64,000 bases of DNA from Escherichia coli. GTDB lineage: Bacteria > Pseudomonadota > Gammaproteobacteria > Enterobacterales > Enterobacteriaceae. Shown here piece after piece: positions 10,509 through 24,443 of the stretch (the first letter of the stretch is position 1; each line of letters starts with the position of its first letter). Location: assembly GCF_048403405.1 (NCBI RefSeq), contig NZ_CP183129.1, one strand, 5' to 3'. The notes below the pieces were generated by a model, which ran no database searches, was not told the origin of the DNA, and saw only the letters and a program-made list of their open reading frames with translations. Both the position numbers and the translations under genes were made by a program.

Positions 10509-11318
10509 ATGGCAACAACACAACAATCTGGATTTGCACCTGCTGCATCGCCTCTAGCTTCGACCATCGTTCAGACCCTGGACGACGCGATTGTGGCGGG
10601 CTTCACCTCTATCCCTTCACAAGGGGATAACATGCCTGCTTACCATGCCAGACCAAAGCAAAGCGATGGCCCACTGCCAGTGGTCATTGTAGTGCAGGAA
10701 ATTTTTGGCGTGCATGAACATATTCGCGACATTTGTCGCCGTCTGGCGCTGGAGGGGTATCTGGCTATCGCACCTGAACTTTACTTCCGCGAAGGCGATC
10801 CGAATGATTTTGCCGATATCCCCACGTTGCTTAGCGGTCTGGTAGCAAAAGTGCCTGACTCGCAGGTGCTGGCCGATCTCGATCATGTCGCCAGTTGGGC
10901 TTCCCGCAACGGCGGCGATGTTCATCGTTTAATGATCACCGGATTCTGCTGGGGTGGACGTATCACCTGGCTGTATGCCGCGCATAATCCACAGCTAAAA
11001 GCCGCAGTGGCGTGGTACGGCAAACTGACGGGCGATAAGTCGCTGAATTCACCGAAACAACCTGTTGATATCGCAACCGATCTTAACGCGCCGGTTCTCG
11101 GCTTATATGGCGGCCAGGATAACAGCATTTCGCAAGAGAGCGTGGAAACGATGCGCCAGGCGCTGCGGGCAGCAAACGCGAAAGCAGAAATTATCGTGTA
11201 CCCGGATGCAGGGCATGCGTTCAACGCCGATTATCGTCCGAGCTATCATGCCGAGTCTGCGAAAGACGGCTGGCAGCGAATGTTGGAATGGTTTACACAG
11301 TATGGTGTTAAAAAGTAA
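10509..11318 (+). CDS. ysgA: Dienelactone hydrolase family protein (YsgA-like)
   Basis: ORF open from 10443; start placed at MATTQQSGFAPAAS, which is preceded by a GGAGA SD. Alpha/beta-hydrolase features (GFCWGG nucleophile elbow). Confidence 0.85.
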   Translation: MATTQQSGFAPAASPLASTIVQTLDDAIVAGFTSIPSQGDNMPAYHARPKQSDGPLPVVIVVQEIFGVHEHIRDICRRLALEGYLAIAPELYFREGDPNDFADIPTLLSGLVAKVPDSQVLADLDHVASWASRNGGDVHRLMITGFCWGGRITWLYAAHNPQLKAAVAWYGKLTGDKSLNSPKQPVDIATDLNAPVLGLYGGQDNSISQESVETMRQALRAANAKAEIIVYPDAGHAFNADYRPSYHAESAKDGWQRMLEWFTQYGVKK

Positions 11319-11574
11319 CGCCATAGTCGCTAAATCTGATGATTAAGCTCACACAATTTCAACGATTTTTTTAATCTCAAAACCATACAGCATCAAAAAA
11401 TTTGTTGCTGTATGCCACTCTTTGACTCCCTTCACATTCGTCATCACACCACCTGCTGAATGCAAAAATTTCGTTGCTGTGCGGCAAACTTTTTTCCTGT
11501 TTTGTGCCGCTTTTCTCCTGAATACTCGTTCTCAGAACAACTGGATCGTTTAAACATCAGACAGGAGATTTACC

Positions 11575-12243
11575 ATGACGCAATCCATTTTTCAGGCTCA
11601 ACCCTTTGAATTACCTTTTGATCCGCGCACAACTGCACTGGTCATGATCGACATGCAGCGTGACTTTGTCGAAGCAGGGGGCTTCGGTGAGGCACTGGGC
11701 AATGATGTTTCACTGGTACGCACGGCTATCGCACCATGTACAGAGGTGCTGGCAGCCGCACGTCAAAAAGGAATTATGGTTATTCATACTCGTGAAGGCC
11801 ATCGTGCAGACTTAAGCGACTGCCCGCCAGCCAAACTGACGCGCGGCGGAAAAACCTTTATTGGTGAACCAGGACCGATGGGACGCATTCTGGTCAGAGG
11901 TGAAGCAGGTCATGACATCATTCCTGAACTGTACCCGGTGGCAGGCGAACCGGTGATTGATAAGCCTGGCAAAGGCGCGTTTTATCAAACCGACTTACAT
12001 CTGATTTTGCAAAACCACGGTATCAAGACGCTGATAGTTTGTGGTGTAACAACCGAAGTTTGCGTAACCACCACCGTGCGCGAAGCAAATGATCGTGGCT
12101 ATGAATGCATTATCCCGGAAGATTGTGTCGGCTCCTATTTCCCGGAATTCCAGAAATACGCCCTCGAGATGATCAAAGCACAAGGTGCCATTTTCGGTTG
12201 GGTTACTGATTCCAAAGCCATTATTGCAGGTCTGGAAGGCTAA
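11575..12243 (+). CDS. Isochorismatase-family cysteine hydrolase (RutB / N-carbamoylsarcosine amidase / biuret hydrolase-like amidase)
   Basis: 222-aa ORF with the isochorismatase-fold signature: Asp in VMIDMQRDF near the N-terminus and catalytic Cys in CGVTTEVCV. AGGAGA SD upstream. First gene of accessory operon A. Confidence 0.8.
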   Translation: MTQSIFQAQPFELPFDPRTTALVMIDMQRDFVEAGGFGEALGNDVSLVRTAIAPCTEVLAAARQKGIMVIHTREGHRADLSDCPPAKLTRGGKTFIGEPGPMGRILVRGEAGHDIIPELYPVAGEPVIDKPGKGAFYQTDLHLILQNHGIKTLIVCGVTTEVCVTTTVREANDRGYECIIPEDCVGSYFPEFQKYALEMIKAQGAIFGWVTDSKAIIAGLEG

Positions 12244-12248
12244 CGCCG

Positions 12249-13109
12249 ATGGCACAGATTACGCTTTGCGCATCGTCGTTGGGATATCTTTTCCCGCAGA
12301 ATGAAACGCAAGATTTACGTCTGCATAGCGCTTTTAAACATGCGGTAAATCTGTATTCAGAAGCGGGAACATTCATCACTCTGTTGTGTGCGCAAACGTA
12401 TCTGAATCTCCCTGATGCTGCCAGAGTCTGGCTACCTGAATGTTGGGACTGGCGAAGAGAGATTGCCCATTCCGATCCCGTTCAGTTAACCCCAGGCTTA
12501 CTGCAGACACCTCGCTTTTGTGTGGCTCTCGATAACGCAACGCTCTGGCAGCCGTCATTTGTGGGAGGAAGGCTGACACTTGAGGCGTTCCCTTTGGTTT
12601 TCCAGCACTACCCAACGATGGCATCGCAACGGCTTTTATTTTGTCTGGAGCATAACGTTCAAAGCACATTGCACCTGCCGGATAGTCTCACGCACCAGGG
12701 ATTAGCGATTATGGAACATCCAGATGCGCTGGAACGCCAGGTGCCACAACTGATCGGCTTTGGTAAAGGCTTAACGCCCGATGGAGATGACTATTTGTTG
12801 GGCTATCTGGCAGCACTCTGGTTATGGCAACTCCCTGCACCACTTGCCGATCATCAATACCGGTTGCAGCAGGCAATTGATCAACATGCGCACAACACCA
12901 CGGATATCAGTCGTCATTATCTGGAGCGTGCGCTTCAGGGACATTTTTCAGAACCGATTTGCCAGTTACTCGCACAACTGGTTGGGAGCGCATCGGCAAT
13001 GACAATCGCATCCTGTGCAGAACAGGTCATGCAATTTGGCGCAACGTCAGGAGTAGATTGCCTTGCAGGAATGCTGCATGGCTTTCGAACCCTGAACACC
13101 ATGAATTGA
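12249..13109 (+). CDS. DUF2877-family protein (YlbF/YahE/AllH-like subunit of an oxamate-carbamoyltransferase-type complex)
   Basis: 286-aa ORF starting 6 nt after the previous stop; Gly-rich motifs GKGLTPDGDDYLLGY and GATSGVD resemble the DUF2877 family as I recall it. Position matches the yahE-yahF-yahG-yahI order. Confidence 0.65.
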   Translation: MAQITLCASSLGYLFPQNETQDLRLHSAFKHAVNLYSEAGTFITLLCAQTYLNLPDAARVWLPECWDWRREIAHSDPVQLTPGLLQTPRFCVALDNATLWQPSFVGGRLTLEAFPLVFQHYPTMASQRLLFCLEHNVQSTLHLPDSLTHQGLAIMEHPDALERQVPQLIGFGKGLTPDGDDYLLGYLAALWLWQLPAPLADHQYRLQQAIDQHAHNTTDISRHYLERALQGHFSEPICQLLAQLVGSASAMTIASCAEQVMQFGATSGVDCLAGMLHGFRTLNTMN

Positions 13110-13203
13110 TTTCAACCTTTTCTCCTGTAGCTCATTTATGGCGCTACACGGGGATGCTTTGCCCGAATTTTACTATCGGGCGGAATGAAACAGGCGTAAC
13201 AGC

Positions 13204-14763
13204 ATGAAAGTTAAATATAAAGTTTTCAGTAATCTTTATCAGGACTCAGTTTCTCTGATGCAGATTTCCGCGCAAATCAGCAAGTTGCCCGGTATTCAAC
13301 AGGCCTCGGTCGTCATGGGAACACCCAATAATCTCGAACAATTGCGCGATGCGGGTCTGGGTAACGAAATCAACGCCAGTCCCAATGATTTAGTGATTGC
13401 AGTCATGGGTGAAGAAGATATTTGCAATGAAGCACTGGCACTGGCCCAGCAACGTCTGACCAGCAAACCCGATGATGAAACGGATAGTGGCATTAAAACA
13501 CCGGAAAATGTCAGCCTGGACATGGCACTGGAAGCCGAACCCGAAGCCAACCTGGCACTCATTTCTGTACCGGGAGACTACGCCGCCGCCGAAGCAATTA
13601 AAGCGTTAAACCTCGGAATGAACGTGATGATGTTCAGCGATAACGTCAGTATCGCGCAGGAAAAATCCATCAAAATACTTGCCCGAGAACGTCAGCGCAT
13701 CGTAATGGGACCTGACTGTGGAACCGCCATTGTTAACGGCATTCCGTTAGGCTTCGCTAATGTGGTGAAACGCGGAGCAATTGGTGTTATTGGCGCGTCA
13801 GGCACCGGGCTACAGGAAGTGACTTGCCGAATCGACCAGCTCGGAGCGGGTATTTCTCAGGCGCTGGGAACAGGCGGGCATGATCTCAGTGAAGAGATTG
13901 GTGGAATATCGATGCTCTTCGCTTTAGATGCGCTGGCGCAAGACGATGAAACTCGCGTAATTGTGCTGATTTCAAAACCGCCTTCACCGATCGTTGCCCG
14001 GACTATTCTGGAGCGTGCCGAGGCTTGTGGAAAACCCGTGGTGGTGAATTTCCTCGGTGCGAATCCGCATGATCTGGCACGTCCCAATATCACTGCCGCC
14101 ACCACACTTGCCAGCGCCGCCGACATCGCTGTGGCGTTACTGAATGCTCAGCCACTTCCGGCTGTCGAGACCGAGATTTCCTGCGCCGATCTCACAATGT
14201 TACAAAACGCCTGTCAGCGCCTGCCAGCCCATCGCCAGGCGATACGCGGTGTTTTCGCCGGAGGAACCTTCTGCTACGAAGCGCAACTTATCTGCCAGCA
14301 AAAGGGATTCCGCGCCGCCTCCAATACGCCAGTTGCGAGTAATCGTACTCTGGCAAATATCTGGCAAAGCGAAGATCACACGCTGATCGATATGGGCGAC
14401 GATGATTTCACCCGTGGCAAACCGCATCCAATGATCGACCCGACTCTGCGCAATCAACGTCTGCTCAACGAACTCAACGACTCACACACTGCCGTCGTGT
14501 TATTCGACCTGGTACTTGGTTATGGCGCTTCCGCTACACCTGCCAGCGAATTACTGGACCAACTTTCACACATCGACATGAATAACGCACCGTTGCTGAT
14601 TGCGCACGTTTGCGGAACGGAAGCTGATCCGCAAATACGCAGTCAGCAGATAAGCGCACTACAAAATGCGGGCATCATCATTGCCAGCAGCAATGCACAG
14701 GCGGCGCTATGGGCCAGCGTCGTTGCGCAGACTCAGTTGCAGAAAAAGGGGCTAAACGCATGA
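13204..14763 (+). CDS. FdrA-like protein (CoA-binding / succinyl-CoA-synthetase-like fold; AllF/YahF family)
   Basis: 519-aa ORF sharing long motifs with E. coli FdrA as I recall it (NLALISVPGDYAA, MMFSDNVS, MGPDCGTAIVNGIPLGFANVV, GVIGASGTGLQEV, GRPHPMIDPTLRNQ). Confidence 0.8.
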   Translation: MKVKYKVFSNLYQDSVSLMQISAQISKLPGIQQASVVMGTPNNLEQLRDAGLGNEINASPNDLVIAVMGEEDICNEALALAQQRLTSKPDDETDSGIKTPENVSLDMALEAEPEANLALISVPGDYAAAEAIKALNLGMNVMMFSDNVSIAQEKSIKILARERQRIVMGPDCGTAIVNGIPLGFANVVKRGAIGVIGASGTGLQEVTCRIDQLGAGISQALGTGGHDLSEEIGGISMLFALDALAQDDETRVIVLISKPPSPIVARTILERAEACGKPVVVNFLGANPHDLARPNITAATTLASAADIAVALLNAQPLPAVETEISCADLTMLQNACQRLPAHRQAIRGVFAGGTFCYEAQLICQQKGFRAASNTPVASNRTLANIWQSEDHTLIDMGDDDFTRGKPHPMIDPTLRNQRLLNELNDSHTAVVLFDLVLGYGASATPASELLDQLSHIDMNNAPLLIAHVCGTEADPQIRSQQISALQNAGIIIASSNAQAALWASVVAQTQLQKKGLNA

Positions 14764-16184
14764 ATACCTTATTTAATCAGCCTTTGAAGGTTGTGAACGC
14801 GGGACTACACAGTTTTGCTGACAATATTCAACATGCCGGGGGAAGCGCAATTGCACTCAACTGGCAGCCACCAGCACAAGGCGATATTGACGCTGGATTG
14901 GATCTGGCATCGTTGCTACGTCATCCACTGGTAGAAAATGCCAACCAAATCGCCATGACACGTTATCTCGAAGCACAGCCCGTGCTGGTAGATGTCATGC
15001 TCGCTAAAGAGGCCATTCCAGCAATGGCTGAACAAAAACGTATTTTGCACTCTGGCCCGCCGATTGCCTGGGAAGAGATGTGTGGTCCGGTAAAAGGGGC
15101 GATTATTGGTGCCATGCTGTACGAAGGTTGGGCCACCAGCCAGCAAGACGCTGAAAACCAGATAAACGCAGGCGAAATCGACCTTGCCCCTTGTCATCAT
15201 TATCACGCGGTTGGCCCAATGGCTGGCATCATCAGCCCGTCGATGCCGTTATGGGTGGTAGAAAACAAAACCAACGGCCACCGTACTTTTAGCAATTTCA
15301 ATGAAGGTCTGGGTAAGGTTCTCCGTTTTGGCGCCAATAACGATGAAGTTCTCAATCGTCTGGCCTGGATGCGCGATGAACTGGCGCCGGCAATGAAAGC
15401 AGCAATCGCACAACACGGCGAGCTGGAACTCAAGCCATTAATGGCGCAGGCGCTGCATATGGGGGATGAAGTTCATAACCGCAATGCTGCCGCTACCGGT
15501 TTGCTGATTAAGCGCCTGCTCCCGGCATTGCTGGCCTGCTCTCTTCCACAGGAACATATCCAGCGCGTCGTGGCATTTATCACCGGTAACGATCACTTCT
15601 TCCTCAATCTGTCGATGGCTGCCTGTAAAGCAATGATGGATGCCGCCGCCAATGTACCGTTCAGTTCAATGGTTACGGTGATGGCGCGTAACGGGGTGAA
15701 TTTTGGTATTCGGCTTTCCGGTACTGGCGATCGCTGGTTCCAGGCTCCTGCCAATGCCGTTGAAGGTCTGTTCTTCCCCGGATTTGGCGTTGACGACGCT
15801 GCTGCTGACCTGGGTGATAGCGCAATTACTGAAACCGCAGGTGTGGGTGGCTTCGCGATGGCGTCGTCTCCGGCGATCGTCAAATTTGTGGGAGGCACCC
15901 CTGCCGATGCCACCAATAACAGCCGTCGGATGCAAGCCATCACCCTCGGCGGTAACCCCGCATTTACACTTCCAGCCCTCAATTTTGCCCCCACCGCAGC
16001 AGGGATTGATGCGCGTAAAGTGACCGATCGCGGCATTTTACCGGTCATCAATACGGGTATCGCCCACAAACAAGCGGGGGTCGGGCAAATTGGTGCCGGG
16101 ATCACCACTGCGCCGATGGCCTGTTTTGTCGCCGCTGTACGTGCACTGGCGGAGATCGTCGCAAAGGAGAACCATCATGGTTAA
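14760..16184 (+). CDS. DUF1116-family protein (YlbE/YahG/AllG-like)
   Basis: ORF open from 14709; I place the start at the ATG at 14760, which overlaps the FdrA-like stop (ATGA), giving MNTLFNQPLKVVNAG. Same gene order as yahF-yahG and fdrA-ylbE. Confidence 0.75.
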   Translation: MNTLFNQPLKVVNAGLHSFADNIQHAGGSAIALNWQPPAQGDIDAGLDLASLLRHPLVENANQIAMTRYLEAQPVLVDVMLAKEAIPAMAEQKRILHSGPPIAWEEMCGPVKGAIIGAMLYEGWATSQQDAENQINAGEIDLAPCHHYHAVGPMAGIISPSMPLWVVENKTNGHRTFSNFNEGLGKVLRFGANNDEVLNRLAWMRDELAPAMKAAIAQHGELELKPLMAQALHMGDEVHNRNAAATGLLIKRLLPALLACSLPQEHIQRVVAFITGNDHFFLNLSMAACKAMMDAAANVPFSSMVTVMARNGVNFGIRLSGTGDRWFQAPANAVEGLFFPGFGVDDAAADLGDSAITETAGVGGFAMASSPAIVKFVGGTPADATNNSRRMQAITLGGNPAFTLPALNFAPTAAGIDARKVTDRGILPVINTGIAHKQAGVGQIGAGITTAPMACFVAAVRALAEIVAKENHHG

Positions 16185-17133
16185 GCCACTGGCTGTTGTC
16201 GCGGTTGGCGGCAATGCGCTCATTCAGGACGAGCAACGCAATAGTATTCCCGATCAATATGTTGCAGTGATGGAAAGCGTGCAGCATATCGTTGATATGG
16301 TTGAAGCCGGATGGGACCTGGTGCTAACCCACGGTAATGGCCCGCAGGTGGGCTTTATTCTGCGCCGCTCTGAACTCGCCAGTAACGAAGTTTCTCCGGT
16401 TCCACTTGATTACGCCGTGGGTGATACACAAGGTGCAATTGGCTACATGTTCCAGAAAGCGCTGCATTACGAATTGGCTCGCCGTGGCATAAACAAACCG
16501 GTAATTGCCCTGGTGACACAAACGCGAGTCAGCCCACATGACGATGCTTTCGCCAACCCCAGTAAACCGATTGGCGCGTTTCTCGATGAAGCAACGGCCC
16601 AACAACGCCAACAACAACTCGGCTGGACGCTGATGGAGGACGCCGGGCGTGGTTGGCGGCGTACAGTTCCCTCTCCTGCACCACTGGAAATTATTGAGCA
16701 CGACACCATCGCTCACCTGGTGCGCCAGGGATATCTGGTTATTGCCTGCGGCGGCGGCGGTATTCCGGTGGTGCGAGACGGGCAACAACTGAAAGGTGTA
16801 GAAGCCGTGATCGATAAAGATCTGGCCTCCGCGCTGCTCGCCAGTCAGTTAGGCGCAGATCTGCTGGTGATCCCCACCGGTGTAGAAAAAGTGGCGATTA
16901 ACTTTGGTACACCACAACAACAGTGGCTCGACGCTATCAGCGTTGCCGAAGCGCAAACGCTGTTGCGGGAAGGTCAGTTTGGTGTCGGCAGTATGCAACC
17001 CAAAGTGGAAGCCATTGTTGATTTCATCAATGCCAGCCAGCAACAAGGCAAACAGGCCAGCGGCCTGATTACTTCACCGCAAACCATAAAAGCAGCCCTG
17101 GCGCATCAGAGCGGTACATGGATAACCCTTTAA
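16177..17133 (+). CDS. Carbamate kinase (ArcC/YahI/AllK family)
   Basis: ORF open from 16090; start placed at MVKPLAVVAVGGNALI (the classic carbamate kinase N-terminus) with an AAGGAGA SD 7 nt upstream; 8-bp overlap with the preceding gene. Confidence 0.85.
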   Translation: MVKPLAVVAVGGNALIQDEQRNSIPDQYVAVMESVQHIVDMVEAGWDLVLTHGNGPQVGFILRRSELASNEVSPVPLDYAVGDTQGAIGYMFQKALHYELARRGINKPVIALVTQTRVSPHDDAFANPSKPIGAFLDEATAQQRQQQLGWTLMEDAGRGWRRTVPSPAPLEIIEHDTIAHLVRQGYLVIACGGGGIPVVRDGQQLKGVEAVIDKDLASALLASQLGADLLVIPTGVEKVAINFGTPQQQWLDAISVAEAQTLLREGQFGVGSMQPKVEAIVDFINASQQQGKQASGLITSPQTIKAALAHQSGTWITL

Positions 17134-17149
17134 ATCTCTGGAGAACACA

Positions 17150-17539
17150 ATGACTACAACGCTTTTAGCCGTTAACGGAACGCTGATGCGCGGCCTGGAA
17201 CTCAACCCAAATATGAAAAAAGCGGGCGGTATTTTTGTCCGTGAAGACCGAACTGACGCCCATTACCGGTTGTGGAGTATTAACGATCGCCATCCGGGAA
17301 TGATTCGCGTGAATGAAGGAGGAACACACGTCGACGTAGAAATTTGGCAATTACCGCTGGCCAGTTTTGCCGCTCTGTTAATGAGCGAACCCGCTGGGCT
17401 GGCAATTGGCAAAATCAAACTTGCCGATGGTAGCGAAGTGCTGGGCGTACTGGCAGAAAACTGGCTGACCGAAGGCCAACGGGAAATTACAGAACTGGGC
17501 GGCTGGCGCAAATACACCGGGCATTTTCATACTGTGTAA
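17150..17539 (+). CDS. Small protein resembling the C-terminal domain of allophanate hydrolase (GGCT-like fold), tentative
   Basis: 129-aa ORF. The segment YRLWSINDRHPGMIRVNEGGTHVDVEIWQLPLASFAALLMSEPAGLAIGKIKLADGSEVLGVLAENW...LGGWRKY resembles the allophanate hydrolase C-terminal domain pattern as I remember it. Assignment from memory only. Confidence 0.5.
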   Translation: MTTTLLAVNGTLMRGLELNPNMKKAGGIFVREDRTDAHYRLWSINDRHPGMIRVNEGGTHVDVEIWQLPLASFAALLMSEPAGLAIGKIKLADGSEVLGVLAENWLTEGQREITELGGWRKYTGHFHTV

Positions 17540-17564
17540 CGCGCATTTATAAAGGGAACATACT

Positions 17565-18788
17565 ATGCGTAAAAAAGAAGAGAATCTGAATACGGCATCA
17601 GGATTGCGTATTGCCATGATTTTGCTGGGTATTGCCGTCACACCTGTGCTGTTGTCATCCTCAAGCCTCGGCAATCAACTTTCCAGCGGCAGTTTAATTA
17701 GCGTCGTATTGTTAGGCGGCGTCATTCTGACCTTACTTTCAGCCATCACCATTAGCGTGGGAGAAAAAGCCCGCCTGCCAACGTATGGCATTGTGAAATA
17801 TTCGTTTGGCGAAAAAGGGGCCATCGCCATTAACATTTTGATGGCGATAAGTCTGTTCGGCTGGATTGCCGTTACCGCCAATATGTTTGGTCATTCGGTA
17901 CATGACTTACTGGCTCAACATGGACTGGAAGTTCCACTGGCACTGTTAGTGGCGGCTGGCTGTGTCATTTTTGTCGCCTCTACGGCATTTGGCTTTGCCG
18001 TTCTGGGAAAAATTGCCCAGGTTGCCGTGCCGGTTATCGCGCTGGTGCTGTGTTACATCCTCTATGTGGCAACCCATACCGAAGTGGCAGTACCAGCGGC
18101 GATTGTGGAGATGAATACAGGTGTCGCCGTTTCCACCGTTGTTGGCACCATTATTGTGCTGGTTGCCACACTGCCTGATTTCGGTAGTTTTGTGCATAAC
18201 CGCAAACATGCACTGATTGCCGCAGGCGTGACGTTTCTGGTTGCCTACCCTCTGCTCTACTGGGCGGGTGCAACGCCGAGCGCCATTAGTGGTCAGGGAT
18301 CTTTACTGGGTGCGATGGCGGTATTCGGTGCGGTTCTGCCTGCGGCGCTGTTGTTGATTTTCGCCTGCGTCACCGGTAACGCGGGCAATATGTTCCAGGG
18401 CACGCTGGTGGTTTCCACACTGCTTACCCGCTTTCCCAAATGGCAGATTACCGTGGCGCTGGGTATCCTTTCCGCCATCGTAGGCAGTATGGATATTATG
18501 GCGTGGTTTATTCCGTTTCTGCTGTTCCTGGGTATCGCCACGCCACCCGTTGCCGGAATTTATATCGCTGACTTTTTCCTTTATCGCCGTAATGGCTATC
18601 AAGAGTCAGTGTTAGCCCAGGAGTCACAGATTAAAGTGCTGACATTCGCAGCATGGATCATAGGCGCAGCGGTTGGCTTTATGACCGTAAAAGGCTTATT
18701 CACCCTGACGACGATCCCTTCGGTAGACTCGATTCTGGTGGCATGTATCGCGTATGCGATTCTCAGTCGGGCAAGTCAACACCGCTAA
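17565..18788 (+). CDS. NCS1-family nucleobase/hydantoin-type permease (CodB-like)
   Basis: 407-aa polytopic membrane protein (about 12 hydrophobic segments) with length and organisation like the cytosine permease CodB. Confidence 0.75.
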   Translation: MRKKEENLNTASGLRIAMILLGIAVTPVLLSSSSLGNQLSSGSLISVVLLGGVILTLLSAITISVGEKARLPTYGIVKYSFGEKGAIAINILMAISLFGWIAVTANMFGHSVHDLLAQHGLEVPLALLVAAGCVIFVASTAFGFAVLGKIAQVAVPVIALVLCYILYVATHTEVAVPAAIVEMNTGVAVSTVVGTIIVLVATLPDFGSFVHNRKHALIAAGVTFLVAYPLLYWAGATPSAISGQGSLLGAMAVFGAVLPAALLLIFACVTGNAGNMFQGTLVVSTLLTRFPKWQITVALGILSAIVGSMDIMAWFIPFLLFLGIATPPVAGIYIADFFLYRRNGYQESVLAQESQIKVLTFAAWIIGAAVGFMTVKGLFTLTTIPSVDSILVACIAYAILSRASQHR

Positions 18789-18865
18789 TTCCTGGGTATA
18801 CTCAGGCAATGATTACGGCTGAATCTGGAGAGATTCAGCCACTTTACCACTGACCAGGGAGCCTT

Positions 18866-19771
18866 ATGTTCATCTCAGACGAAACGCTTCGTGTTATTCA
18901 TCTGGTCGCCAGACACCAGAGCATTACCATCGCAGCCGAGCAGTTAAATAAAGTCCCTTCCGCCATCAGTTACACCATCAAGAAAGCGGAAGAGAGCCTG
19001 GGCGTTGAACTGTTCATTCGTAAGGGACGCTATATTGAATTATCGCCAGCGGGAAGTTACTTCATCGAACATAGCAAAACTATTCTTGGCGACCTGGAAG
19101 CATTAAAGCGCAACACAGTGCTGATTCACGATGGTATTGAGCGTGAACTGACAATTGCGGTAAACAATATTATTCCTGGTAATTTGCTGGTGGCATTTAT
19201 TCGAGATTTTGAACGGCAATTCACATCAACAACACTGACGGTAGATCTTGAGGTATACAACGGCTGCTGGGATGCGCTGTACAGTAAGCGTGCTGATCTG
19301 GTCTACGGTGCTCCTCATGCAGTACCAAGTAGTGAAGGCATCATTAGCGAACCGGTCGGACAAATGGAATGGGATTTTGTCGTCAGCCCACTCCACCCAC
19401 TGGCAGCGAAGCGGCATCCATTAGAAAACAGTGAATTGCGTCATTATCCAGCGGTTTGTATCCGCGATACCTCCGTTAACTTCCCCCCGATGCAAGCCTG
19501 GTTGTTGGAAGGACAAAAACCCATTTTTGTTCCTGACTTCGCTACGGCAATCGCCTTAATAGAACAAAACGTCGGTATTGGTTATATTCCACATCATCTG
19601 GCATTGCCGTTATTGAACAGCGGTAAATTGCTTAAAAAGCCAATGCGCGAACATAAACACGCCACCAAGTTATTTCTTGCCGCTCGTTCCGATGGTATGG
19701 GCAAAGCCTGTCAGTGGTGCATAGAATATTTAAGAAACCCGCAATTAATGACACGATTTGTATTTAATTGA
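18866..19771 (+). CDS. LysR-family transcriptional regulator
   Basis: 301-aa ORF with N-terminal HTH (ITIAAEQLNKVPSAISYTIKKAEESLGVELFIRKGR) and C-terminal LysR substrate-binding domain. Confidence 0.85.
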   Translation: MFISDETLRVIHLVARHQSITIAAEQLNKVPSAISYTIKKAEESLGVELFIRKGRYIELSPAGSYFIEHSKTILGDLEALKRNTVLIHDGIERELTIAVNNIIPGNLLVAFIRDFERQFTSTTLTVDLEVYNGCWDALYSKRADLVYGAPHAVPSSEGIISEPVGQMEWDFVVSPLHPLAAKRHPLENSELRHYPAVCIRDTSVNFPPMQAWLLEGQKPIFVPDFATAIALIEQNVGIGYIPHHLALPLLNSGKLLKKPMREHKHATKLFLAARSDGMGKACQWCIEYLRNPQLMTRFVFN

Positions 19772-19899
19772 CAATACAATGATAAAAATATAAGTCTTGC
19801 TTTAATTAGAGCGCCCGTTTAAATTATTTTTGTGCAGTTGACGTAACTCATGAAAATTAACCGGTCTGTTAATCATTACGTTCACTGCACACCTTCATT

Positions 19900-19940
19900 T
19901 TTTCACACCTATCCACGCCTGAAAACTATGTTATAATCAG
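19900..19940 (+). promoter_or_regulatory. Putative sigma70 promoter with extended -10 (TGTTATAAT) for the RpiR-family gene
   Basis: TGTTATAAT at about 19929-19937 in an AT-rich intergenic region, about 30 nt upstream of the ATG at 19971. No convincing -35. Confidence 0.3.
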
Positions 19941-19970
19941 CACTTTCTGTCAGAATGAAATTTACTAATT

Positions 19971-20816
19971 ATGAATAACATAACCGTAAAAAGTCTGATT
20001 CAAAGCAATTACCCTACACTGCATCAGGCGGAAAAAAAGGTCGCCGACTATATTCTTAGCCACGCACATGAAGTCGTGAACTATAGTGTCACTGAACTAT
20101 CAGAAAAAAGCCATGCCAGTGAAGCGACTATCGTGCGCACCTGTAAGAAATTAGGTTATCAGGGTTATTACCATTTAAAAATTGCATTAGCAAAAGAAGT
20201 CATTAATCCTGACAATAGCTATCCTGATAATACCGATTTTACCGATATAACGTCGCTGGCCACATTTTTATTAAAAAAACAGGCCGAAGATTTAATACAA
20301 TCAACGCAATTTTTTAATGCCGAAGTGCTTGAGTCCATTCTCAAACTACTTGCTAATTGCGATACTATTTTCTTTTTTGCTGCCGGAAATTCAAACCCTC
20401 TGGCCGTTTATGGTGCTTATAAATTCAGCCAACTCGGATTAAAAACCGTTGTTCACGTCAGCCCGGAAATGCAAATTAATGCGGCATATTCTATGGGGAA
20501 ACGCGACCTGGCGATTGGTATTTCTAACTCTGGCAGCACCAACTTAATGGTCGATATCTTTAAAGTGGTGAAAGAGCGCGGTGCCAAATCCGTTTGTATC
20601 ACTAACTATATTAAATCTCCGTTATCAAAACTCTCCACCCATCAACTCAATACCGCGGTCAGCGATAAAATCTTCTTTGAAGCCTTCGACTCCACTCGCG
20701 TTCCGGCAATGGGCGTTATTGATATGCTGGTGCTGTTGTTTATGTATAAAAACAAGGCGCATTACGAGAAATACCGCACCCGTGAAGAGTTTCTCGGCTC
20801 CCGTTTCAAGGGGTAA
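19971..20816 (+). CDS. RpiR/MurR-family transcriptional regulator (HTH + SIS domain)
   Basis: 281-aa ORF with N-terminal HTH_6-type region (SVTELSEKSHASEATIVRTCKKLGYQGYYHLK) and C-terminal SIS domain. Confidence 0.85.
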   Translation: MNNITVKSLIQSNYPTLHQAEKKVADYILSHAHEVVNYSVTELSEKSHASEATIVRTCKKLGYQGYYHLKIALAKEVINPDNSYPDNTDFTDITSLATFLLKKQAEDLIQSTQFFNAEVLESILKLLANCDTIFFFAAGNSNPLAVYGAYKFSQLGLKTVVHVSPEMQINAAYSMGKRDLAIGISNSGSTNLMVDIFKVVKERGAKSVCITNYIKSPLSKLSTHQLNTAVSDKIFFEAFDSTRVPAMGVIDMLVLLFMYKNKAHYEKYRTREEFLGSRFKG

Positions 20817-20840
20817 AAGGTCATCCTTTCACCCCTTGTG
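20810..20840. terminator. Hairpin between the convergent RpiR-family and transketolase genes (possible bidirectional terminator)
   Basis: GGGGTAAAAGG-TCAT-CCTTTCACCCC inverted repeat overlapping the rpiR-like stop codon, followed by TTGTG; 30-bp gap between convergent stops. Confidence 0.4.
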
Positions 20841-20845
20841 CAGGT

Positions 20846-22843
20846 TTAGCTATTCAGTAGCTCACGCGCCTGCGCCAGGACATTTTCCGGCGTAAAACCA
20901 AAGTGTTTGAACAACACATTCGCCGGAGCAGACTCACCAAAGCTCGTCATCCCAATGACTTTACCATCCAGACCGACGTAGCGTTCCCAGAATCCGGCGA
21001 TGCTGGCTTCTACCGCCAGACGTTTGCGTACAGCTTTTGGCAATACCGATTCTTTGTACGCCGCATCCTGATTATCGAAACGCTCGGTACACGGCATGGA
21101 AACTACGCGAACTTTACGCCCTTCTTCCGTTAACGCTTTTGCGGCGCTGACCACTAACTCAATCTCTGAACCCGCAGAAATGAGGATCATCTCAGGCTGA
21201 CCGTCACAATCACTCAGTACATAACCACCACGCGCAATCTCTGCCAACTGTGCAGCGGTGCGCGGCTGTTGCGCCAGCGGTTGGCGCGTTAATACCAACG
21301 ACGTTGGGCCATCTTTGCGCTCAATCGCCTGTTGCCAGGCCACCGCCACTTCCACCTGATCGCAACCGCGCCAGGTTTCCATATTCGGCGTCAGACGCAG
21401 CGACGCCAGTTGCTCAACGGGCTGATGTGTCGGGCCGTCTTCGCCCAGGCCGATGGTATCGTGGGTATAAACAAACACCGAGCGGATCTTCATCAGCGCC
21501 GCCATGCGCAGTGCATTACGCGCATATTCCATAAACATCAGGAAAGTACCGCCGTAAGGGATAAACCCACCATGCAGCGCAAGACCGTTCATGATGGCCG
21601 ACATACCAAATTCACGCACGCCATAGGAGATGTAATTCCCCGCCGGATTTTCCCCGGTGAAATCAACCGATTTCTGATGGCGAGTCAGGTTAGAGGGCGA
21701 CAAGTCCGCCGAGCCGCCCATCAGTTCCGGCAGCATATCAGCGAAGTGATTGAGGCATTTCTGGCTGACCTGACGGGTTGCCAGCGCCGCCGGATGGGAT
21801 TGCAGATCGTGCACATATTTCTGCATATTCTCGGCCCAGCCAGCAGGCAAATCACCCTTCATGCGACGAGTAAACTCCGCCGCCAGTTCCGGCCACTGCT
21901 TCGCGTAGTCAGCAAACAGTGCATCCCATTCCTGTTGAACCTGCGCGCCTTTCTCGGTCGCATCCCATTCGGCATAAATTTCACCAGGAATTTCGAAAGG
22001 GGCATACGGCCATTGCAGACGTTCACGCACCAGCGCCACTTCATCTGCACCCAGCGCCGAGCCGTGGCAATCGTGGCTGTTGGCTTTATTTGGTGAACCA
22101 AAACCGATAATCGTTTTGCAGCACAGCAGACTGGGCTTATCCGTGACGCTTTTCGCTTCACGCACCGCAGCATCTACCGCTTCTGGATCGTGACCATCAA
22201 CGCCTTCAATGACATGCCAGCCGTAGGCACGAAAACGGGCAGCCGTATCTTCAGCGAACCAGCCTTCTACGTGACCATCGATCGAAATACCGTTATCGTC
22301 CCAGATAGCAATCAGATTGCCGAGCTTCAGCGTTCCTGCAAGACCACAGGCCTCGTGGGAGATCCCTTCCATCAGGCAGCCATCACCCAAAAATAGCCAT
22401 GTGTGATGATCAACAATATTAAAGCCCGGTTTGTTAAATTCTGCCGCCAGCGCCTTCTCCGCAATCGCCATCCCCACCGCATTAGCTACGCCCTGCCCCA
22501 ACGGGCCGGTGGTGGTTTCAACACCCGGCGTATAACCATATTCTGGATGACCCGGCGTGCGGGAGTGGAGCTGACGAAAGTCGCGAATATCATCCATCGA
22601 CAGGTCGTAGCCTGTAAGATGCAGCAAAGCGTAAATCAACATGGAGCCGTGACCGTTCGACTGAACATAGCGGTCGCGGTTAAACCACTGCGGATTTTTT
22701 GGGTTATGACGCAGGTGACGACGCCAGACCACTTCGGCAATATCCGCCATCCCCATCGGCGCGCCCGGATGACCGGAGTTCGCTTTCTGGATCGCATCAA
22801 CACTTAACATTCGGATGGCATTAGCCAGTAATTGTGAATTCAT
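20846..22843 (-). CDS. tkt: Transketolase paralog (third tkt copy; possibly the ExPEC-associated 'tkt1')
   Basis: 665-aa ORF collinear with E. coli TktA/TktB over its whole length ([81 protein letters not shown]) but clearly divergent from both, and located in an accessory island. Confidence 0.9.
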
Positions 22844-22893
22844 ACTTCAGCTCTCTCTGTCTGGCGGGCTGAAACCAGCCCGCTAATCTCGAA

Positions 22894-24402
22894 TTAGTTA
22901 GCACAGGCCACTGTCATTTCTGTCGGGCGCGGTCTGCTCATTACGGTTTTAATTTCGTCGCGCAGGATTTGCGATTTGCCGCCAAATATCACCTGTACAC
23001 CGCCATCACCCAGTTTCACTAACCCCGCAGCCCCCAACTCCTTCAGCCGTTTTTCATTCACTTTCTTATCGTCTACCAGCGCCAGCCTCAGGCGTGTTGC
23101 GCAGGCATCCACATCTTCGATATTGTCGAAACCACCTACTGCTTCGATGATTTGGTATGGACGTTCTTCGCGCGTTAATGTGGTTGCAACGGCAATCTCT
23201 TCATCCTCACGTCCCGGTGTTTTCAGATTCAACTTGCGGATCAGTACCCGAAATACGGTGTAGTAAATCGCTGCATAGCCCGCGCCTGCCAGGAACACCA
23301 GATACCACGGCGTGCGGTTTGGCATAACGCCATTCAGTACGAAATCAATAAGACCGCCAGCAAAAGGATGACCAATGTGCACATTCAGGATGTTCATCAG
23401 CACAAATGAAGTGGCATATAAGAAGATGTGAATGATGTAGAGAACCGGAGCTGCAAACAAAAATGCATATTCCAGCGGCTCCGTAATCCCGGTAACAAAT
23501 GTGGTCAGCGCACCGGAGAGTAAAAGGCCTTTAATCAGCGCCTTACGTTCCGGTTTTGCTTCCTGATACATCGCCAACGCGGCGGCAGGTAACGCAAACA
23601 TCATGATCGGGAAACGACCTGTCATAAACAGCCCCGCCGTCAACGGAACACCGTCGCGCAATTGGGCAAAGAACACCGGAATATCGCCCGTCACCAGTTG
23701 CCCGGATTTGGTCATGTAGTCGCCAAAGTTGTAATAAAACGGCACGTTCCAGATATGATGCAGGCCAAAAGGAATCAGCGAACGTTCGCCAACGGCGTAA
23801 ATAAAGGCCGCGAAGTTCGCGTTATGCCCACTGGTCACCAGCGTTGAAAGCGACGCCAGACCTTTTTGTACCGGTATCCACAGCCACGGCAATAAATAGC
23901 CGACAATAATTGCCGCCACCGCCGTAATAATCGGTACAAAGCGTTTTCCACCGAAGAAACCAAGAAACTGAGGCAATTCAATATTGTGGAAGCGGGTATA
24001 GAGCAGATAAACAAAGATGGCGACAATCAAACCGCCAAACACTCCCGTTTGTAACGTCGGTACCCCGAGGATCATCGCATAGTCACCGTTACTGGCTGCA
24101 ACGGACTCCGCGGTAATGCCAAGTTGCGTTCCCATCGTGGCATTCATGATCATGTAACTGATAATCGCTGAAAGTGATGAAGAACCATCACCTGTCAGGC
24201 CAATCACAATACCGACACAAAACAGCAAAGGAAGGTTGGCGAAAATCAGGCCGCCGCAATTCGCCAGCAGCTCAATGTTAAATGAAATCCCGATGGCTAA
24301 AATCAAACCCGCCGCCGGAAGAATGGCGATTGGTAACATCAGAGCAGAAGAAAATTTCTGCAACTTCTTGAAGTTAAACAAGGATGTTATTTTTTTGCTC
24401 AT
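22894..24402 (-). CDS. PTS glucose-family EIICB component (EIIC domain followed by EIIB domain)
   Basis: 502-aa ORF: polytopic EIIC region, then a C-terminal EIIB domain with the phosphocysteine motif DACATRLRL. No EIIA domain. Confidence 0.85.
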   Translation of the reverse strand: MSKKITSLFNFKKLQKFSSALMLPIAILPAAGLILAIGISFNIELLANCGGLIFANLPLLFCVGIVIGLTGDGSSSLSAIISYMIMNATMGTQLGITAESVAASNGDYAMILGVPTLQTGVFGGLIVAIFVYLLYTRFHNIELPQFLGFFGGKRFVPIITAVAAIIVGYLLPWLWIPVQKGLASLSTLVTSGHNANFAAFIYAVGERSLIPFGLHHIWNVPFYYNFGDYMTKSGQLVTGDIPVFFAQLRDGVPLTAGLFMTGRFPIMMFALPAAALAMYQEAKPERKALIKGLLLSGALTTFVTGITEPLEYAFLFAAPVLYIIHIFLYATSFVLMNILNVHIGHPFAGGLIDFVLNGVMPNRTPWYLVFLAGAGYAAIYYTVFRVLIRKLNLKTPGREDEEIAVATTLTREERPYQIIEAVGGFDNIEDVDACATRLRLALVDDKKVNEKRLKELGAAGLVKLGDGGVQVIFGGKSQILRDEIKTVMSRPRPTEMTVACAN

Positions 24403-24443
24403 TTTTATTCTCCTGTAGGGTATCGAGCAAATAACGGCGACGA

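What the first reader, a model, noticed from the sequence alone, without database searches (positions are those of the whole stretch)
14709..16184. Overlapping start/stop codons link FdrA-like, DUF1116 and carbamate kinase genes
The FdrA-like stop and the DUF1116 start share ATGA (14760-14763), and the DUF1116 3' end overlaps the carbamate kinase start by 8 bp (16177-16184), with AAGGAGA embedded in the upstream coding sequence. The six-frame track gives longer N-terminal extensions for both downstream genes (from 14709 and 16090) that would overlap the upstream gene by 55 and 95 bp; I consider the short, coupled starts correct. Translational coupling supports a stoichiometric complex, consistent with the three-subunit OXTCase model.
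Basis: seen in the sequence. Interest (0 to 1): 0.3.

Follow-up and report, generated by a model that had tools for sequence, protein, structure and literature searches.

The report
Overlapping gene junctions, correctly called starts
Three neighbouring genes of an accessory E. coli nitrogen-catabolism operon overlap by 4 and 8 bases.

Summary
ATGA at 14760-14763 joins the FdrA-like stop to the DUF1116 (AllG-like) start. ATGGTTAA at 16177-16184 joins the carbamate kinase (CK) start to the DUF1116 stop, with AAGGAGA at 16164-16170. Longer ORFs from ATG14709 and TTG16090 exist.

The short starts are right:
- RefSeq uses them.
- In 78 orthologous loci the aligned start codon is conserved, and many loci carry in-frame stops just upstream.
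- The long "starts" are by-products of conserved codons in the upstream gene: a Trp codon of FdrA, and an Ile-Gly pair of DUF1116.
- Solved CK structures begin where the short form begins.

Both junctions stay tight across phyla, while the other junctions of the same operon are loose. That suggests selection for coupled synthesis. The E. coli 8-base overlap derives from an ancestral ATGA by a 1-base deletion.

The overlaps themselves are commonplace: 7 of 36 other same-strand gene pairs in this window also overlap.

The "three-subunit OXTCase" reading is only partly apt. The published subunits are AllF, AllG and AllH. CK is a separate enzyme. The AllH-like gene lies 94 bases upstream, is not overlapped, and is missing from some orthologous clusters.

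Coupling itself is untested. Interest is low. The surrounding cluster, which starts with a triuret/biuret-hydrolase-like gene, is the more interesting object.

The parts
11575..12243 (+). First gene of the operon: isochorismatase-family cysteine hydrolase, closest to triuret hydrolase TrtA and biuret hydrolase BiuH
   Evidence: Pfam PF00857. Best PDB matches are 6XIX/6XJ4 (TrtA, E 9e-80), then BiuH 6AZO. NCBIfam BiuH scores 279.8 bits, below its cut-off of 370.
12249..13109 (+). AllH-like (DUF2877) gene. It lies 5 nt after the hydrolase gene and 94 nt before the FdrA-like gene, and is not overlapped.
   Evidence: Pfam PF11392 AllH, 95.6 bits. Junction distances. 26% identity to YahE and AllH.
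13204..14763 (+). FdrA-like (AllF-like) gene, 519 aa, stop TGA at 14761-14763
   Evidence: Pfam CoA_binding + Ligase_CoA. NCBIfam FdrA subfamily 497 bits, above its cut-off of 433. PDB 3DMY FdrA. RefSeq CDS.
14709..14759 (+). Spurious 17-codon N-terminal extension of the DUF1116 ORF. ATG14709 is the last base of a Leu codon plus TG of a conserved FdrA Trp codon.
   Evidence: Orthologs show ATG/GTG/TTG/CTG at this site (wobble variation) and in-frame stops in Serratia L005/L008. Variability peaks at FdrA codon position 3 (0.44 against 0.24 and 0.27).
14746..14751 (+). Shine-Dalgarno-like AAGGGG, 8 nt before ATG14760, inside the FdrA-like coding sequence
   Evidence: Duplex with the 16S 3' end is -7.0 kcal/mol; about 3% of positions in the region reach this value. 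A purine-rich GGA/GGAG is conserved at this place in Enterobacterales orthologs.
14760..14763 (+). ATGA stop/start overlap between FdrA-like and DUF1116 (-4 junction)
   Evidence: RefSeq annotation. The -4 spacing occurs in 30 of 78 loci, in 19 of 48 genera.
14760..16184 (+). DUF1116 / AllG-like gene, 474 aa, stop TAA at 16182-16184
   Evidence: Pfam PF06545 AllG, 329.7 bits. Orthologs of 465-482 aa all start at the aligned Met, with invariant residues from position 4 onwards. PDB 3CLQ.
16090..16176 (+). Spurious 29-codon N-terminal extension of the CK ORF. TTG16090 lies inside the invariant Ile-Gly of the DUF1116 motif GQIGAG.
   Evidence: In the closest other genera the CK frame is closed 6-51 nt upstream of the aligned ATG. 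The exact long form is absent from the 15-billion-protein collection.
16164..16170 (+). Shine-Dalgarno AAGGAGA, 7 nt (from GGAG) before ATG16177, inside the DUF1116 coding sequence
   Evidence: Duplex -8.7 kcal/mol. GGAG is kept in Enterobacterales although the encoded DUF1116 tail residues and even the reading frame differ.
16177..16184 (+). ATGGTTAA overlap of the CK start and the DUF1116 stop (-8 junction), derived from an ancestral ATGA
   Evidence: Sister genera have ATGA (-4). E. coli has one base fewer in the DUF1116 tail.
16177..17133 (+). Carbamate kinase, 318 aa
   Evidence: NCBIfam TIGR00746 arcC scores 365.8 bits, above its cut-off of 358.25. Residue 5 of solved CKs 1B7B and 1E19 aligns with residue 6 of the short form.
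17150..17539 (+). Stand-alone allophanate-hydrolase C-terminal-domain protein (AH_C); fused to CK in 12 distant loci
   Evidence: Pfam PF21986, 142.7 bits. CK::AH_C ORFs of 447-459 aa in mycobacteria and in Acidobacteria, Verrucomicrobia and Rhodobacterales assemblies.
17565..18788 (+). NCS1-family (cytosine-permease-like) transporter
   Evidence: Pfam PF02133; NCBIfam hits are below cut-off.
18866..19771 (+). LysR-family regulator (closest models are PunR and AllS, both below cut-off)

Best explanation
The window carries an accessory E. coli operon inserted between ysgA and metE. Its genes, in order, are:
- a TrtA/BiuH-like hydrolase
- an AllH-like gene
- an FdrA-like gene
- a DUF1116/AllG-like gene
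- carbamate kinase (CK)
- an AH_C protein
- an NCS1 permease
- a LysR regulator

DUF1116 starts at ATG14760 and CK at ATG16177 (shown by comparison with orthologs). The longer ORFs are accidents of conserved codons in the upstream genes.

Inferred mechanism: a ribosome finishing the FdrA-like gene at UGA 14761-63 sits on AUG14760 and on the AAGGGG motif 8 nt upstream, and can restart there. A ribosome finishing DUF1116 at UAA 16182-84 is 5 nt past AUG16177, next to a strong AAGGAGA, and can restart or be replaced by a newly recruited 30S subunit. The expected result is roughly proportional synthesis of the FdrA-like protein, the AllG-like protein and the kinase that consumes their labile product, carbamoyl phosphate.

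Shown here: the coordinates, the start sites, and the conservation of tight spacing. Inferred: the coupling itself, proportional synthesis, and any physical complex.
For: Annotation:
- RefSeq/PGAP annotates exactly these starts in chromosomal, E. coli B and plasmid copies. So does the BEN2908 'GR 29' table.

DUF1116 start:
- Orthologs at 63-88% identity from Gamma-, Beta- and Alphaproteobacteria and Actinobacteria start at the aligned Met, with invariant residues from position 4.
- In 78 loci the aligned codon is ATG or GTG in all but a few. In-frame stops lie 3-36 nt upstream in many, for example Serratia at 21 nt and Rahnella at 6 nt.
- The codon at -51 is ATG, GTG, TTG or CTG according to the wobble base before a conserved Trp codon of FdrA.
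- Site variability follows the FdrA frame.

CK start:
- The aligned ATG is conserved. The CK frame is closed 6-51 nt upstream in Edwardsiella, Serratia, Enterobacter, Lelliottia, Citrobacter and Klebsiella.
- Solved CKs align from their residue 5 to residue 6 of the short form.
- TTG16090 sits in the invariant I-G of GQIGAG.

Spacing:
- FdrA->DUF1116 is within -8..+10 nt in 35 of 47 genera.
- DUF1116->CK is within -8..+10 nt in 42 of 45 genera, and is ATGA in 47 loci.
- In the same operons allH->fdrA is mostly 30-140 nt, CK->AH_C 10-70 nt, and AH_C->permease 15-115 nt.

Shine-Dalgarno motifs:
- Duplex energies are -7.0 and -8.7 kcal/mol.
- GGAG before CK is retained despite changes in the tail residues and in the frame.

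Background:
- 13 of 14 tested overlapping pairs were strictly coupled (PMC6728339).
- AllF and AllG appear in similar amounts after purification (PMC11326118).
Against: - No expression, ribosome-profiling or proteomic data were examined, so coupling is inferred from sequence alone.
- RNA around both junctions folds no better than shuffled sequence (z +1.15 and +0.70). The internal ribosome-binding sites are probably accessible, and independent initiation cannot be excluded.
- A -8 overlap restarts less efficiently than -4 (PMC10666635).
- Shine-Dalgarno energy does not discriminate against TTG16090 (-9.3 kcal/mol from G-rich Gly codons).
- Low-level use of ATG14709 in E. coli itself cannot be excluded, because the frame is open there.
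- A crude linked-chain AlphaFold2 model of DUF1116+CK gave pTM 0.49, so it gives no support for a direct interface. The model was poor.
Confidence: 0.75

Rival explanations
1. The overlaps are passive by-products of genome compaction and of how stop and start codons can share bases. Each downstream gene is translated independently from its own Shine-Dalgarno site, with no functional coupling or stoichiometric meaning.
For: - Overlaps are common: 7 of 36 other same-strand pairs in this window overlap, including pairs with no known complex such as hemC/hemD and xerC/yigA/dapF.
- About 70% of E. coli pairs at -8..+10 nt are not known complexes.
- Both internal Shine-Dalgarno sites are strong and lie in weakly structured RNA.
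- The exact spacing drifts among genera: -8, -4, -1, and +2 to +19.
Against: - Tight spacing is specific to these two junctions. The allH->fdrA, CK->AH_C and AH_C->permease junctions of the same operons are loose across the same taxa.
- ATGA at DUF1116->CK recurs from Enterobacterales to Actinobacteria.
- 13 of 14 tested overlapping pairs were strictly coupled.
Confidence: 0.2
2. The long ORFs are the real genes: DUF1116 starts at ATG14709 (491 aa) and CK at TTG16090 (347 aa), overlapping the upstream genes by 55 and 95 nt.
For: - Both frames are open in E. coli.
- The 491-aa form is widespread in automated annotations, appearing in NCBI, IMG, ENA and Logan entries on at least 1000 contigs, and in P0077/P0078.
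- ATG14709 has a modest Shine-Dalgarno match (-5.8 kcal/mol), and TTG16090 has a G-rich one (-9.3 kcal/mol).
Against: - There is no conservation upstream of the short starts.
- Orthologs carry in-frame stops there.
- The start-like codons are explained by conserved Trp and Ile-Gly codons of the upstream genes.
- Variability follows the upstream gene's frame.
- Solved CKs have no such extension.
- The CK long form is absent from the protein collection.
- PGAP chooses the short starts.
Confidence: 0.03
3. A programmed -1 frameshift at G_AAA_AAG (14742-14748, FdrA frame) moves some ribosomes into the open DUF1116 frame and makes an FdrA-DUF1116 fusion protein of about 992 aa.
For: - The sequence contains the A_AAG slippery core.
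- The -1 frame is the DUF1116 frame, and it is open from 14626 to 14760.
- The same G AAA AAG occurs in Citrobacter and Edwardsiella.
Against: - The heptamer is not a canonical X_XXY_YYZ site.
- No stable downstream structure is predicted.
- The motif changes to AAC in Serratia and is absent in Enterobacter.
- Rahnella and many others have a stop 6-15 nt before the ATG or a real intergenic gap.
- The A/G-rich run is sufficiently explained as the Shine-Dalgarno site for DUF1116.
Confidence: 0.02

Closest known systems
allFGHK operon of E. coli K-12 (fdrA-ylbE-ylbF-ybcF): oxamic transcarbamylase AllF/AllG/AllH plus catabolic carbamate kinase AllK (PMC11326118, PMC9843812)
   Same: - Homologous FdrA-type, DUF1116 and DUF2877 proteins and a carbamate kinase sit in one operon.
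- Junctions are tight: gaps of 9 and 10 nt and one ATGA overlap.
- The expected chemistry is phosphorolysis of an N-carbamoyl compound to carbamoyl phosphate, followed by ATP formation.
   Different: - The proteins are only 41, 49, 26 and 39% identical.
- Gene order differs: the DUF2877 gene comes first here, third in K-12.
- The overlapped pair in K-12 is allH/allK, not fdrA/allG or allG/CK.
- AllG lacks the first ~56 residues present here.
- The genomic context differs: a TrtA/BiuH-like hydrolase, AH_C and an NCS1 permease here, against allantoin genes in K-12.
yahD-yahJ cluster of E. coli K-12 (yahE DUF2877, yahF FdrA-like, yahG DUF1116, yahI carbamate kinase-like); function unknown
   Same: - Same gene order: DUF2877, FdrA-like, DUF1116, then CK.
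- yahF/yahG overlap by 1 nt and yahE/yahF by 11 nt.
- YahG has the same N-terminal region as the protein here.
   Different: - The proteins are 26, 42, 46 and 48% identical.
- yahI lies 421 nt after yahG and is not coupled.
- The neighbours differ: an ankyrin protein and the amidohydrolase YahJ.
Stop/start-overlapping gene pairs coupled by termination-reinitiation, as tested in E. coli and Haloferax (PMC6728339, PMC10666635; review PMC12548453)
   Same: -4 (NTGA) and -8 spacing, with a Shine-Dalgarno motif inside the 3' end of the upstream gene.
   Different: Coupling has not been measured for this pair. The -8 spacing is the less efficient and rarer class.
Triuret/biuret pathway: TrtA, BiuH and allophanate hydrolase AtzF (PMC7948467)
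   Same: - The first gene of the operon is most like TrtA (E 9e-80) and BiuH, with the catalytic Cys and the Gln of the specificity loop aligned.
- The operon also encodes the C-terminal domain of allophanate hydrolase.
   Different: - There is no amidase domain of AtzF.
- An FdrA/AllG-type carbamoyltransferase and a carbamate kinase stand in its place.
- The BiuH equivalog cut-off is not reached: 279.8 against 370 bits.
- Co-location of trtA/biuH with allFGHK has been noted in comammox Nitrospira assemblies, where it was read as two adjacent pathways (PMC12625717).

Membership tests
Translationally coupled overlapping gene pair (termination-reinitiation type) | Same-strand neighbours whose stop and start codons overlap at -4, -1 or -8 nt | tested here: met
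   ATGA at 14760-14763 (-4); ATGGTTAA at 16177-16184 (-8).
Translationally coupled overlapping gene pair (termination-reinitiation type) | Shine-Dalgarno motif at functional spacing inside the upstream gene | tested here: met
   AAGGGG 8 nt upstream (-7.0 kcal/mol); AAGGAGA 7 nt upstream (-8.7 kcal/mol). Both are conserved in Enterobacterales.
Translationally coupled overlapping gene pair (termination-reinitiation type) | Translation of the downstream gene depends on translation of the upstream gene | not testable with these tools
   This needs reporter fusions with premature stops, or ribosome profiling. The only indirect support is the taxon-wide retention of tight spacing at these two junctions.
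Oxamic transcarbamylase AllFGH (three-subunit OXTCase) | FdrA-type, DUF1116 (PF06545) and DUF2877 (PF11392) proteins encoded together | tested here: met
   All three Pfam families are found at 12249-16184.
Oxamic transcarbamylase AllFGH (three-subunit OXTCase) | The three overlapped genes of the finding are the three subunits | tested here: not met
   The third overlapped gene is carbamate kinase, which is a separate enzyme (AllK) in the published system. The AllH-like gene is 94 nt upstream and not overlapped.
Oxamic transcarbamylase AllFGH (three-subunit OXTCase) | Orthology to AllF/AllG/AllH and linkage to allantoin-degradation genes | tested here: not met
   41, 49 and 26% identity, about equally distant from the Yah paralogs. 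The neighbours are a TrtA/BiuH-like hydrolase, AH_C and an NCS1 permease in 72-75 of 82 loci. Some orthologous clusters have no DUF2877 gene nearby.
Oxamic transcarbamylase AllFGH (three-subunit OXTCase) | Catalyses oxalurate + phosphate <-> carbamoyl phosphate + oxamate | not testable with these tools
   Requires an enzyme assay.
Carbamate kinase (arcC) | Scores above the curated equivalog cut-off and has the canonical N-terminus (strand followed by the GGNA loop within the first ~15 residues) | tested here: met
   TIGR00746 scores 365.8 against a cut-off of 358.25. The sequence MVKPLAVVAVGGNAL aligns from residue 6 to residue 5 of 1B7B and 1E19.
Programmed -1 ribosomal frameshift site (dnaX type), considered | Canonical X_XXY_YYZ heptamer, downstream stimulatory structure, and conservation | tested here: not met
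   G_AAA_AAG is non-canonical. The fold z-score is +1.15. The motif and the open frame are not conserved.

The most novel reading that the evidence does not exclude
The conserved, tightly joined block of FdrA-like, AllG-like and carbamate kinase genes may be a distinct enzyme module rather than a copy of oxamic transcarbamylase. The block almost always travels with a TrtA/BiuH-like hydrolase. It often has the kinase fused to an allophanate-hydrolase C-terminal domain, and sometimes has no AllH-like gene nearby.

On this reading the module cleaves the product of a triuret/biuret-type hydrolase (allophanate or carboxybiuret) by phosphorolysis to carbamoyl phosphate, and recovers ATP. This would replace the hydrolytic, energy-wasting allophanate hydrolase. 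The conserved stop/start overlaps would then reflect co-assembly or hand-over of labile carbamoyl phosphate between the AllG-like protein and the kinase.
Probability: 0.2. Interest if true: 0.6.

Novelty: new member of a known kind. Interest (0 to 1): 0.15.

Why it matters
- It settles a real annotation disagreement. The 491-aa DUF1116 form is common in automated gene calls, but the 474-aa form is correct. The right N-termini matter for cloning and for structure prediction.
- It shows which genes of this uncharacterised operon are likely made in fixed proportion: FdrA-like, AllG-like and CK, but not AllH-like. That is useful for co-expression and pull-down design.
- The cluster is in 29% of complete E. 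coli genomes, including E. coli B, and on plasmids.
- Beyond that, the finding is routine operon architecture.

Tried and rejected
1. AlphaFold2 on a DUF1116-(GGGGS)5-CK chain, with a 20-row alignment paired by genome. Result: pTM 0.49, mean pLDDT 72.7, residues 347-433 below 50. This neither supports nor excludes an interface, because the alignment is too shallow. The FdrA+DUF1116 control was not run for the same reason.
2. RNA folding of 111 nt around each junction. Folding is no more stable than shuffled sequence, so no structure-based coupling signal was found.
3. Promoter and terminator scan of 11200-20000. Counts are at or below shuffle expectation, and nothing was found in the 94-nt allH/fdrA gap.
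4. Shine-Dalgarno energies as a discriminator. They favour ATG14760 over ATG14709, but not ATG16177 over TTG16090, so I did not rely on them.
5. -1 frameshift fusion at G_AAA_AAG. Rejected as unconserved and without a stimulator.
6. Cluster look-up. The 90% clusters returned mix FdrA with DUF1116 and DUF1116 fragments with CK. I treated this as a database artefact and used only the presence or absence of the exact sequences.
7. Several automatic junction values were wrong and were corrected by eye or by rescanning:
   - L007: apparent 16-nt overlap.
   - L035: apparent 1367-nt gap.
   - L049, L050, L053 and L064: apparent 1400-nt overlaps. These came from BLAST segment ends overshooting a stop.


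Full report
**1. Observation**

- The FdrA-like ORF (13204-14763) ends with TGA at 14761-14763.
- ATG at 14760-14762 lies in the DUF1116 frame, so ATGA is shared.
- DUF1116 ends with TAA at 16182-16184, and the carbamate kinase (CK) ATG is at 16177-16179, so ATGGTTAA is shared over 8 nt.
- AAGGAGA is at 16164-16170.
- The mechanical ORF list gives the long versions 14709-16184 (491 aa, ATG) and 16090-17133 (347 aa, TTG). These would overlap the upstream genes by 55 and 95 nt.

**2. Where the window comes from**

Window 5500-25800 is identical to E. coli strain 4621, and the rest is collinear with it. The genes lie in an accessory insertion between ysgA and metE. The insertion is present in 1559 of 5426 complete E. 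coli genomes and in about 125 plasmid places. E. coli B carries it as an 8-gene insert. A 194-kb plasmid carries a copy at 95% identity.

The operon genes, in order, are listed below:
- an isochorismatase-family cysteine hydrolase
- an AllH-like (DUF2877) gene
- an FdrA-like gene
- a DUF1116/AllG-like gene
- carbamate kinase
- a stand-alone allophanate-hydrolase C-terminal domain (AH_C)
- an NCS1 permease
- a LysR regulator

RefSeq annotates DUF1116 and CK from the short starts in all three copies inspected. The same coordinates appear for 'GR 29' of strain BEN2908 (PMC12928451).

**3. Start of DUF1116**

- Homologs at 72-88% identity from many genera are 465-480 aa long and cover about 95-96% of the 491-aa query.
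- In an alignment of 18 sequences, all but one begin at the Met that corresponds to ATG14760. Invariant residues follow from position 4 (L4 F5 Q7 L9 V11 N13 G15 L16 ...). The exception, P0077, is an E. coli-like sequence called from the long start.
- At DNA level, in 78 orthologous loci fetched from one genome per species, the aligned codon is ATG or GTG almost everywhere. Many loci have an in-frame stop 3-36 nt upstream: Serratia at 21 nt, Rahnella at 6 nt, Klebsiella at 12 nt, Silvimonas and Paraburkholderia at 15 nt.
- ATG14709 is the last base of a Leu codon plus the TG of a conserved FdrA Trp codon. In orthologs the same site reads ATG, GTG, TTG or CTG, as expected for a wobble base.
- Over the 51 nt before ATG14760, mean pairwise difference among ten Enterobacterales sequences is 0.24, 0.27 and 0.44 at FdrA codon positions 1, 2 and 3. 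The FdrA frame is therefore the one under selection. The extension frame contains stops in two Serratia loci.

**4. Start of CK**

- The aligned ATG is conserved.
- In the nearest other genera (Edwardsiella, Serratia, Enterobacter, Lelliottia, Citrobacter, Klebsiella, Limnobaculum) the CK frame is closed 6-51 nt upstream, with no alternative start.
- TTG16090 consists of the TT of an Ile codon and the G of a Gly codon in the invariant DUF1116 motif GQIGAG.
- Solved carbamate kinases (1B7B, 1E19; 310-317 aa) align from their residue 5 to residue 35 of the long ORF, which is residue 6 of the short form.
- The exact long CK form is absent from the 15-billion-protein collection. The long DUF1116 form is present on at least 1000 contigs, so that annotation error is real and widespread.
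- Caveat: Shine-Dalgarno energy alone does not reject TTG16090 (-9.3 kcal/mol from G-rich glycine codons). It does favour ATG14760 (-7.0) over ATG14709 (-5.8), and it is strong for ATG16177 (-8.7).

**5. Evolution of the junctions**

Rescanning all loci gave these spacings.

| Junction | -4 | -1 | -8 | Other | Genera within -8..+10 nt |
|---|---|---|---|---|---|
| FdrA->DUF1116 | 30 loci | 5 | 2 | mostly +3 to +15 | 35 of 47 |
| DUF1116->CK | 47 loci | 1 | 4 (three E. coli entries and Kosakonia) | 15 loci at +1 to +10, 8 at +18/+19, one at +53 | 42 of 45 |

In the same loci the other junctions are loose: allH->fdrA mostly 30-140 nt, CK->AH_C 10-70 nt unless fused, and AH_C->permease 15-115 nt. 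Tight spacing is therefore specific to the FdrA-like/DUF1116/CK block, which argues for selection rather than general compaction.

The E. coli 8-nt overlap is derived. Sister genera read ...ATGAGTAAR or ATGAACAAA with the DUF1116 stop in ATGA. E. coli has one base fewer in the variable DUF1116 tail and now stops at the TAA formed by GTT-AAG.

The GGAG before the CK start is retained although the tail residues (AKENHHG, ASGETS, AQGEAQ, PAGEKA) and even the reading frame differ. This points to selection on the ribosome-binding site.

**6. How unusual this is**

It is not unusual. In the annotated stretch that corresponds to window 5500-64000 I count 38 adjacent same-strand CDS pairs, and 9 overlap by 1-8 nt. 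Seven are outside the finding: ubiB/ubiJ, a YPO3983-family gene/DUF943, yigB/xerC, xerC/yigA, yigA/dapF, hemC/hemD and wzyE/rffT.

Published surveys say the same:
- -4 is the commonest spacing, with -1 and -8 as lesser peaks (PMC12548453).
- About 15% of gene pairs overlap co-directionally (PMC6728339).
- E. coli has 820 pairs at -8..+10 nt. Of these, 30.4% encode subunits of heteromeric complexes, against 6.8% at more than 20 nt (PMC10666635).
- -8 overlaps restart less efficiently.
- 13 of 14 tested overlapping pairs were strictly coupled.

**7. The complex claim**

Kim and Kim (PMC11326118) showed that OXTCase needs AllF (FdrA), AllG (YlbE, DUF1116) and AllH (YlbF, DUF2877). [quoted passage not shown] Carbamate kinase AllK is a separate enzyme of the same operon.

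Applied to this window:
- The FdrA-like/DUF1116 overlap fits that picture.
- CK is not one of the three subunits.
- The AllH-like gene here is upstream and separated by 94 nt.
- The proteins are a third paralogous set in E. coli, with these identities to the Yah and All proteins:

| Protein here | Yah paralog | All paralog |
|---|---|---|
| FdrA-like | 42% | 41% |
| DUF1116 | 46% | 49% |
| DUF2877 (AllH-like) | 26% | 26% |
| CK | 48% | 39% |

- In K-12 the tight junctions fall elsewhere. allFGHK has gaps of 9 and 10 nt and an ATGA between allH and allK. The yah cluster has -11 and -1, then 421 nt before yahI.
- A crude test for a DUF1116-CK interface (a linked chain with a 20-row alignment paired by genome) gave pTM 0.49 with a poorly modelled DUF1116 C-terminal part. 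It is uninformative.
- RNA around the junctions is not more structured than shuffled sequence, so independent initiation at the internal Shine-Dalgarno sites cannot be excluded.

**8. Context worth more than the finding**

- The first gene product is most similar to the triuret hydrolase TrtA (6XIX, E 9e-80) and next to biuret hydrolases. The catalytic Cys and the specificity-loop Gln align, but the protein scores below the BiuH equivalog cut-off.
- Among the 82 loci, the hydrolase is present in 72, AH_C in 75, CK in 79 and FdrA-like in 79. The AllH-like gene was detected in only 56.
- In Mycolicibacterium rhodesiae the cluster is hydrolase, FdrA-like, DUF1116 and a CK::AH_C fusion, with junctions +3, -4 and -4. 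No DUF2877 gene was found among the ORFs I scanned from the 13-kb locus.
- CK::AH_C fusions of 447-459 aa occur in 12 loci from four phyla.
- This suggests a module that handles allophanate-like products of a triuret/biuret-type hydrolase by phosphorolysis with ATP recovery. That is a hypothesis, not a result. Co-location of trtA/biuH with allFGHK has been noted in comammox assemblies (PMC12625717).

**9. Verdict**

- The short starts are correct with high confidence.
- Coupling is plausible, and the tight spacing is evolutionarily conserved, but coupling is untested.
- The mapping onto the three-subunit OXTCase is only partly right.
- This is ordinary operon architecture in an uncharacterised paralog of a known system, so interest is low.

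Noticed in passing
window 11575-12243: The first gene of the operon encodes a cysteine hydrolase whose best solved relatives are triuret hydrolase TrtA (6XIX/6XJ4, E 9e-80) and biuret hydrolases. The catalytic Cys and the specificity Gln align. It scores below the NCBIfam BiuH cut-off (279.8 against 370 bits). RefSeq calls it only 'cysteine hydrolase family protein'.
   Followed up: partly
L068:7434-8798 (Mycolicibacterium rhodesiae); also L057, L072-L077, L079-L081: Carbamate kinase and the allophanate-hydrolase C-terminal domain are fused into one ORF of 447-459 aa in 12 loci from Actinobacteria, Acidobacteria, Verrucomicrobia and Rhodobacterales. This links the two separate E. coli genes (16177-17133 and 17150-17539) functionally.
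   Followed up: partly
L068:1-13422 and other loci (L045-L050, L054, L058, L061, L064, L072-L081): The AllH-like (DUF2877) gene is the least conserved member of the cluster (25-60% identity). It is absent from its usual place in many orthologous clusters. In M. rhodesiae no DUF2877 gene was found among the ORFs scanned from the 13-kb locus, so the three-subunit model may not hold for this orthologous group.
   Followed up: partly
window 14742-14748: G_AAA_AAG in the FdrA frame resembles a -1 slippery site. A -1 shift would enter the DUF1116 frame, which is open, and would make a fusion protein. The motif is not conserved outside the closest genera, and no downstream structure is predicted.
   Followed up: partly
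window 14760-14930 (first ~56 codons of DUF1116): The conserved N-terminal ~56 residues of this protein and of YahG are missing from AllG/YlbE (419 aa) and from the only solved DUF1116 structure, 3CLQ (421 aa).
   Followed up: no
L084 (plasmid p98206-contig_4, NZ_CP173542.1) and L085 (E. coli B-RalR): The 8-gene cluster also occurs on large plasmids (about 125 places among complete E. coli genomes), flanked by transposase and relaxase remnants. In E. coli B it occurs as a shorter insert that lacks the MurR/tkt/ptsG-like/hxlB genes found downstream in the window.
   Followed up: partly
P0077, P0078 (metagenome proteins, 486 aa): These proteins carry the long E. coli N-terminus (MGQHRC...) and match the island DUF1116 for about 255 residues. 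They then switch to a divergent, apparently YahG-like sequence (not compared directly), so they are probably assembly chimeras. They also show that gene callers pick ATG14709.
   Followed up: no
protein clusters returned: The 90%-identity clusters mix unrelated neighbours: FdrA 519-aa sequences with DUF1116, and DUF1116 fragments with carbamate kinase. This looks like a database artefact.
   Followed up: no
window 19971-25300 (annotation in L001 14472-19502): Downstream of the LysR gene, the insertion in this strain also carries a MurR/RpiR regulator, a second transketolase, a PTS glucose-type IIBC gene and a 6-phospho-3-hexuloisomerase. This separate sugar-phosphate module is absent from the E. 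coli B version.
   Followed up: no
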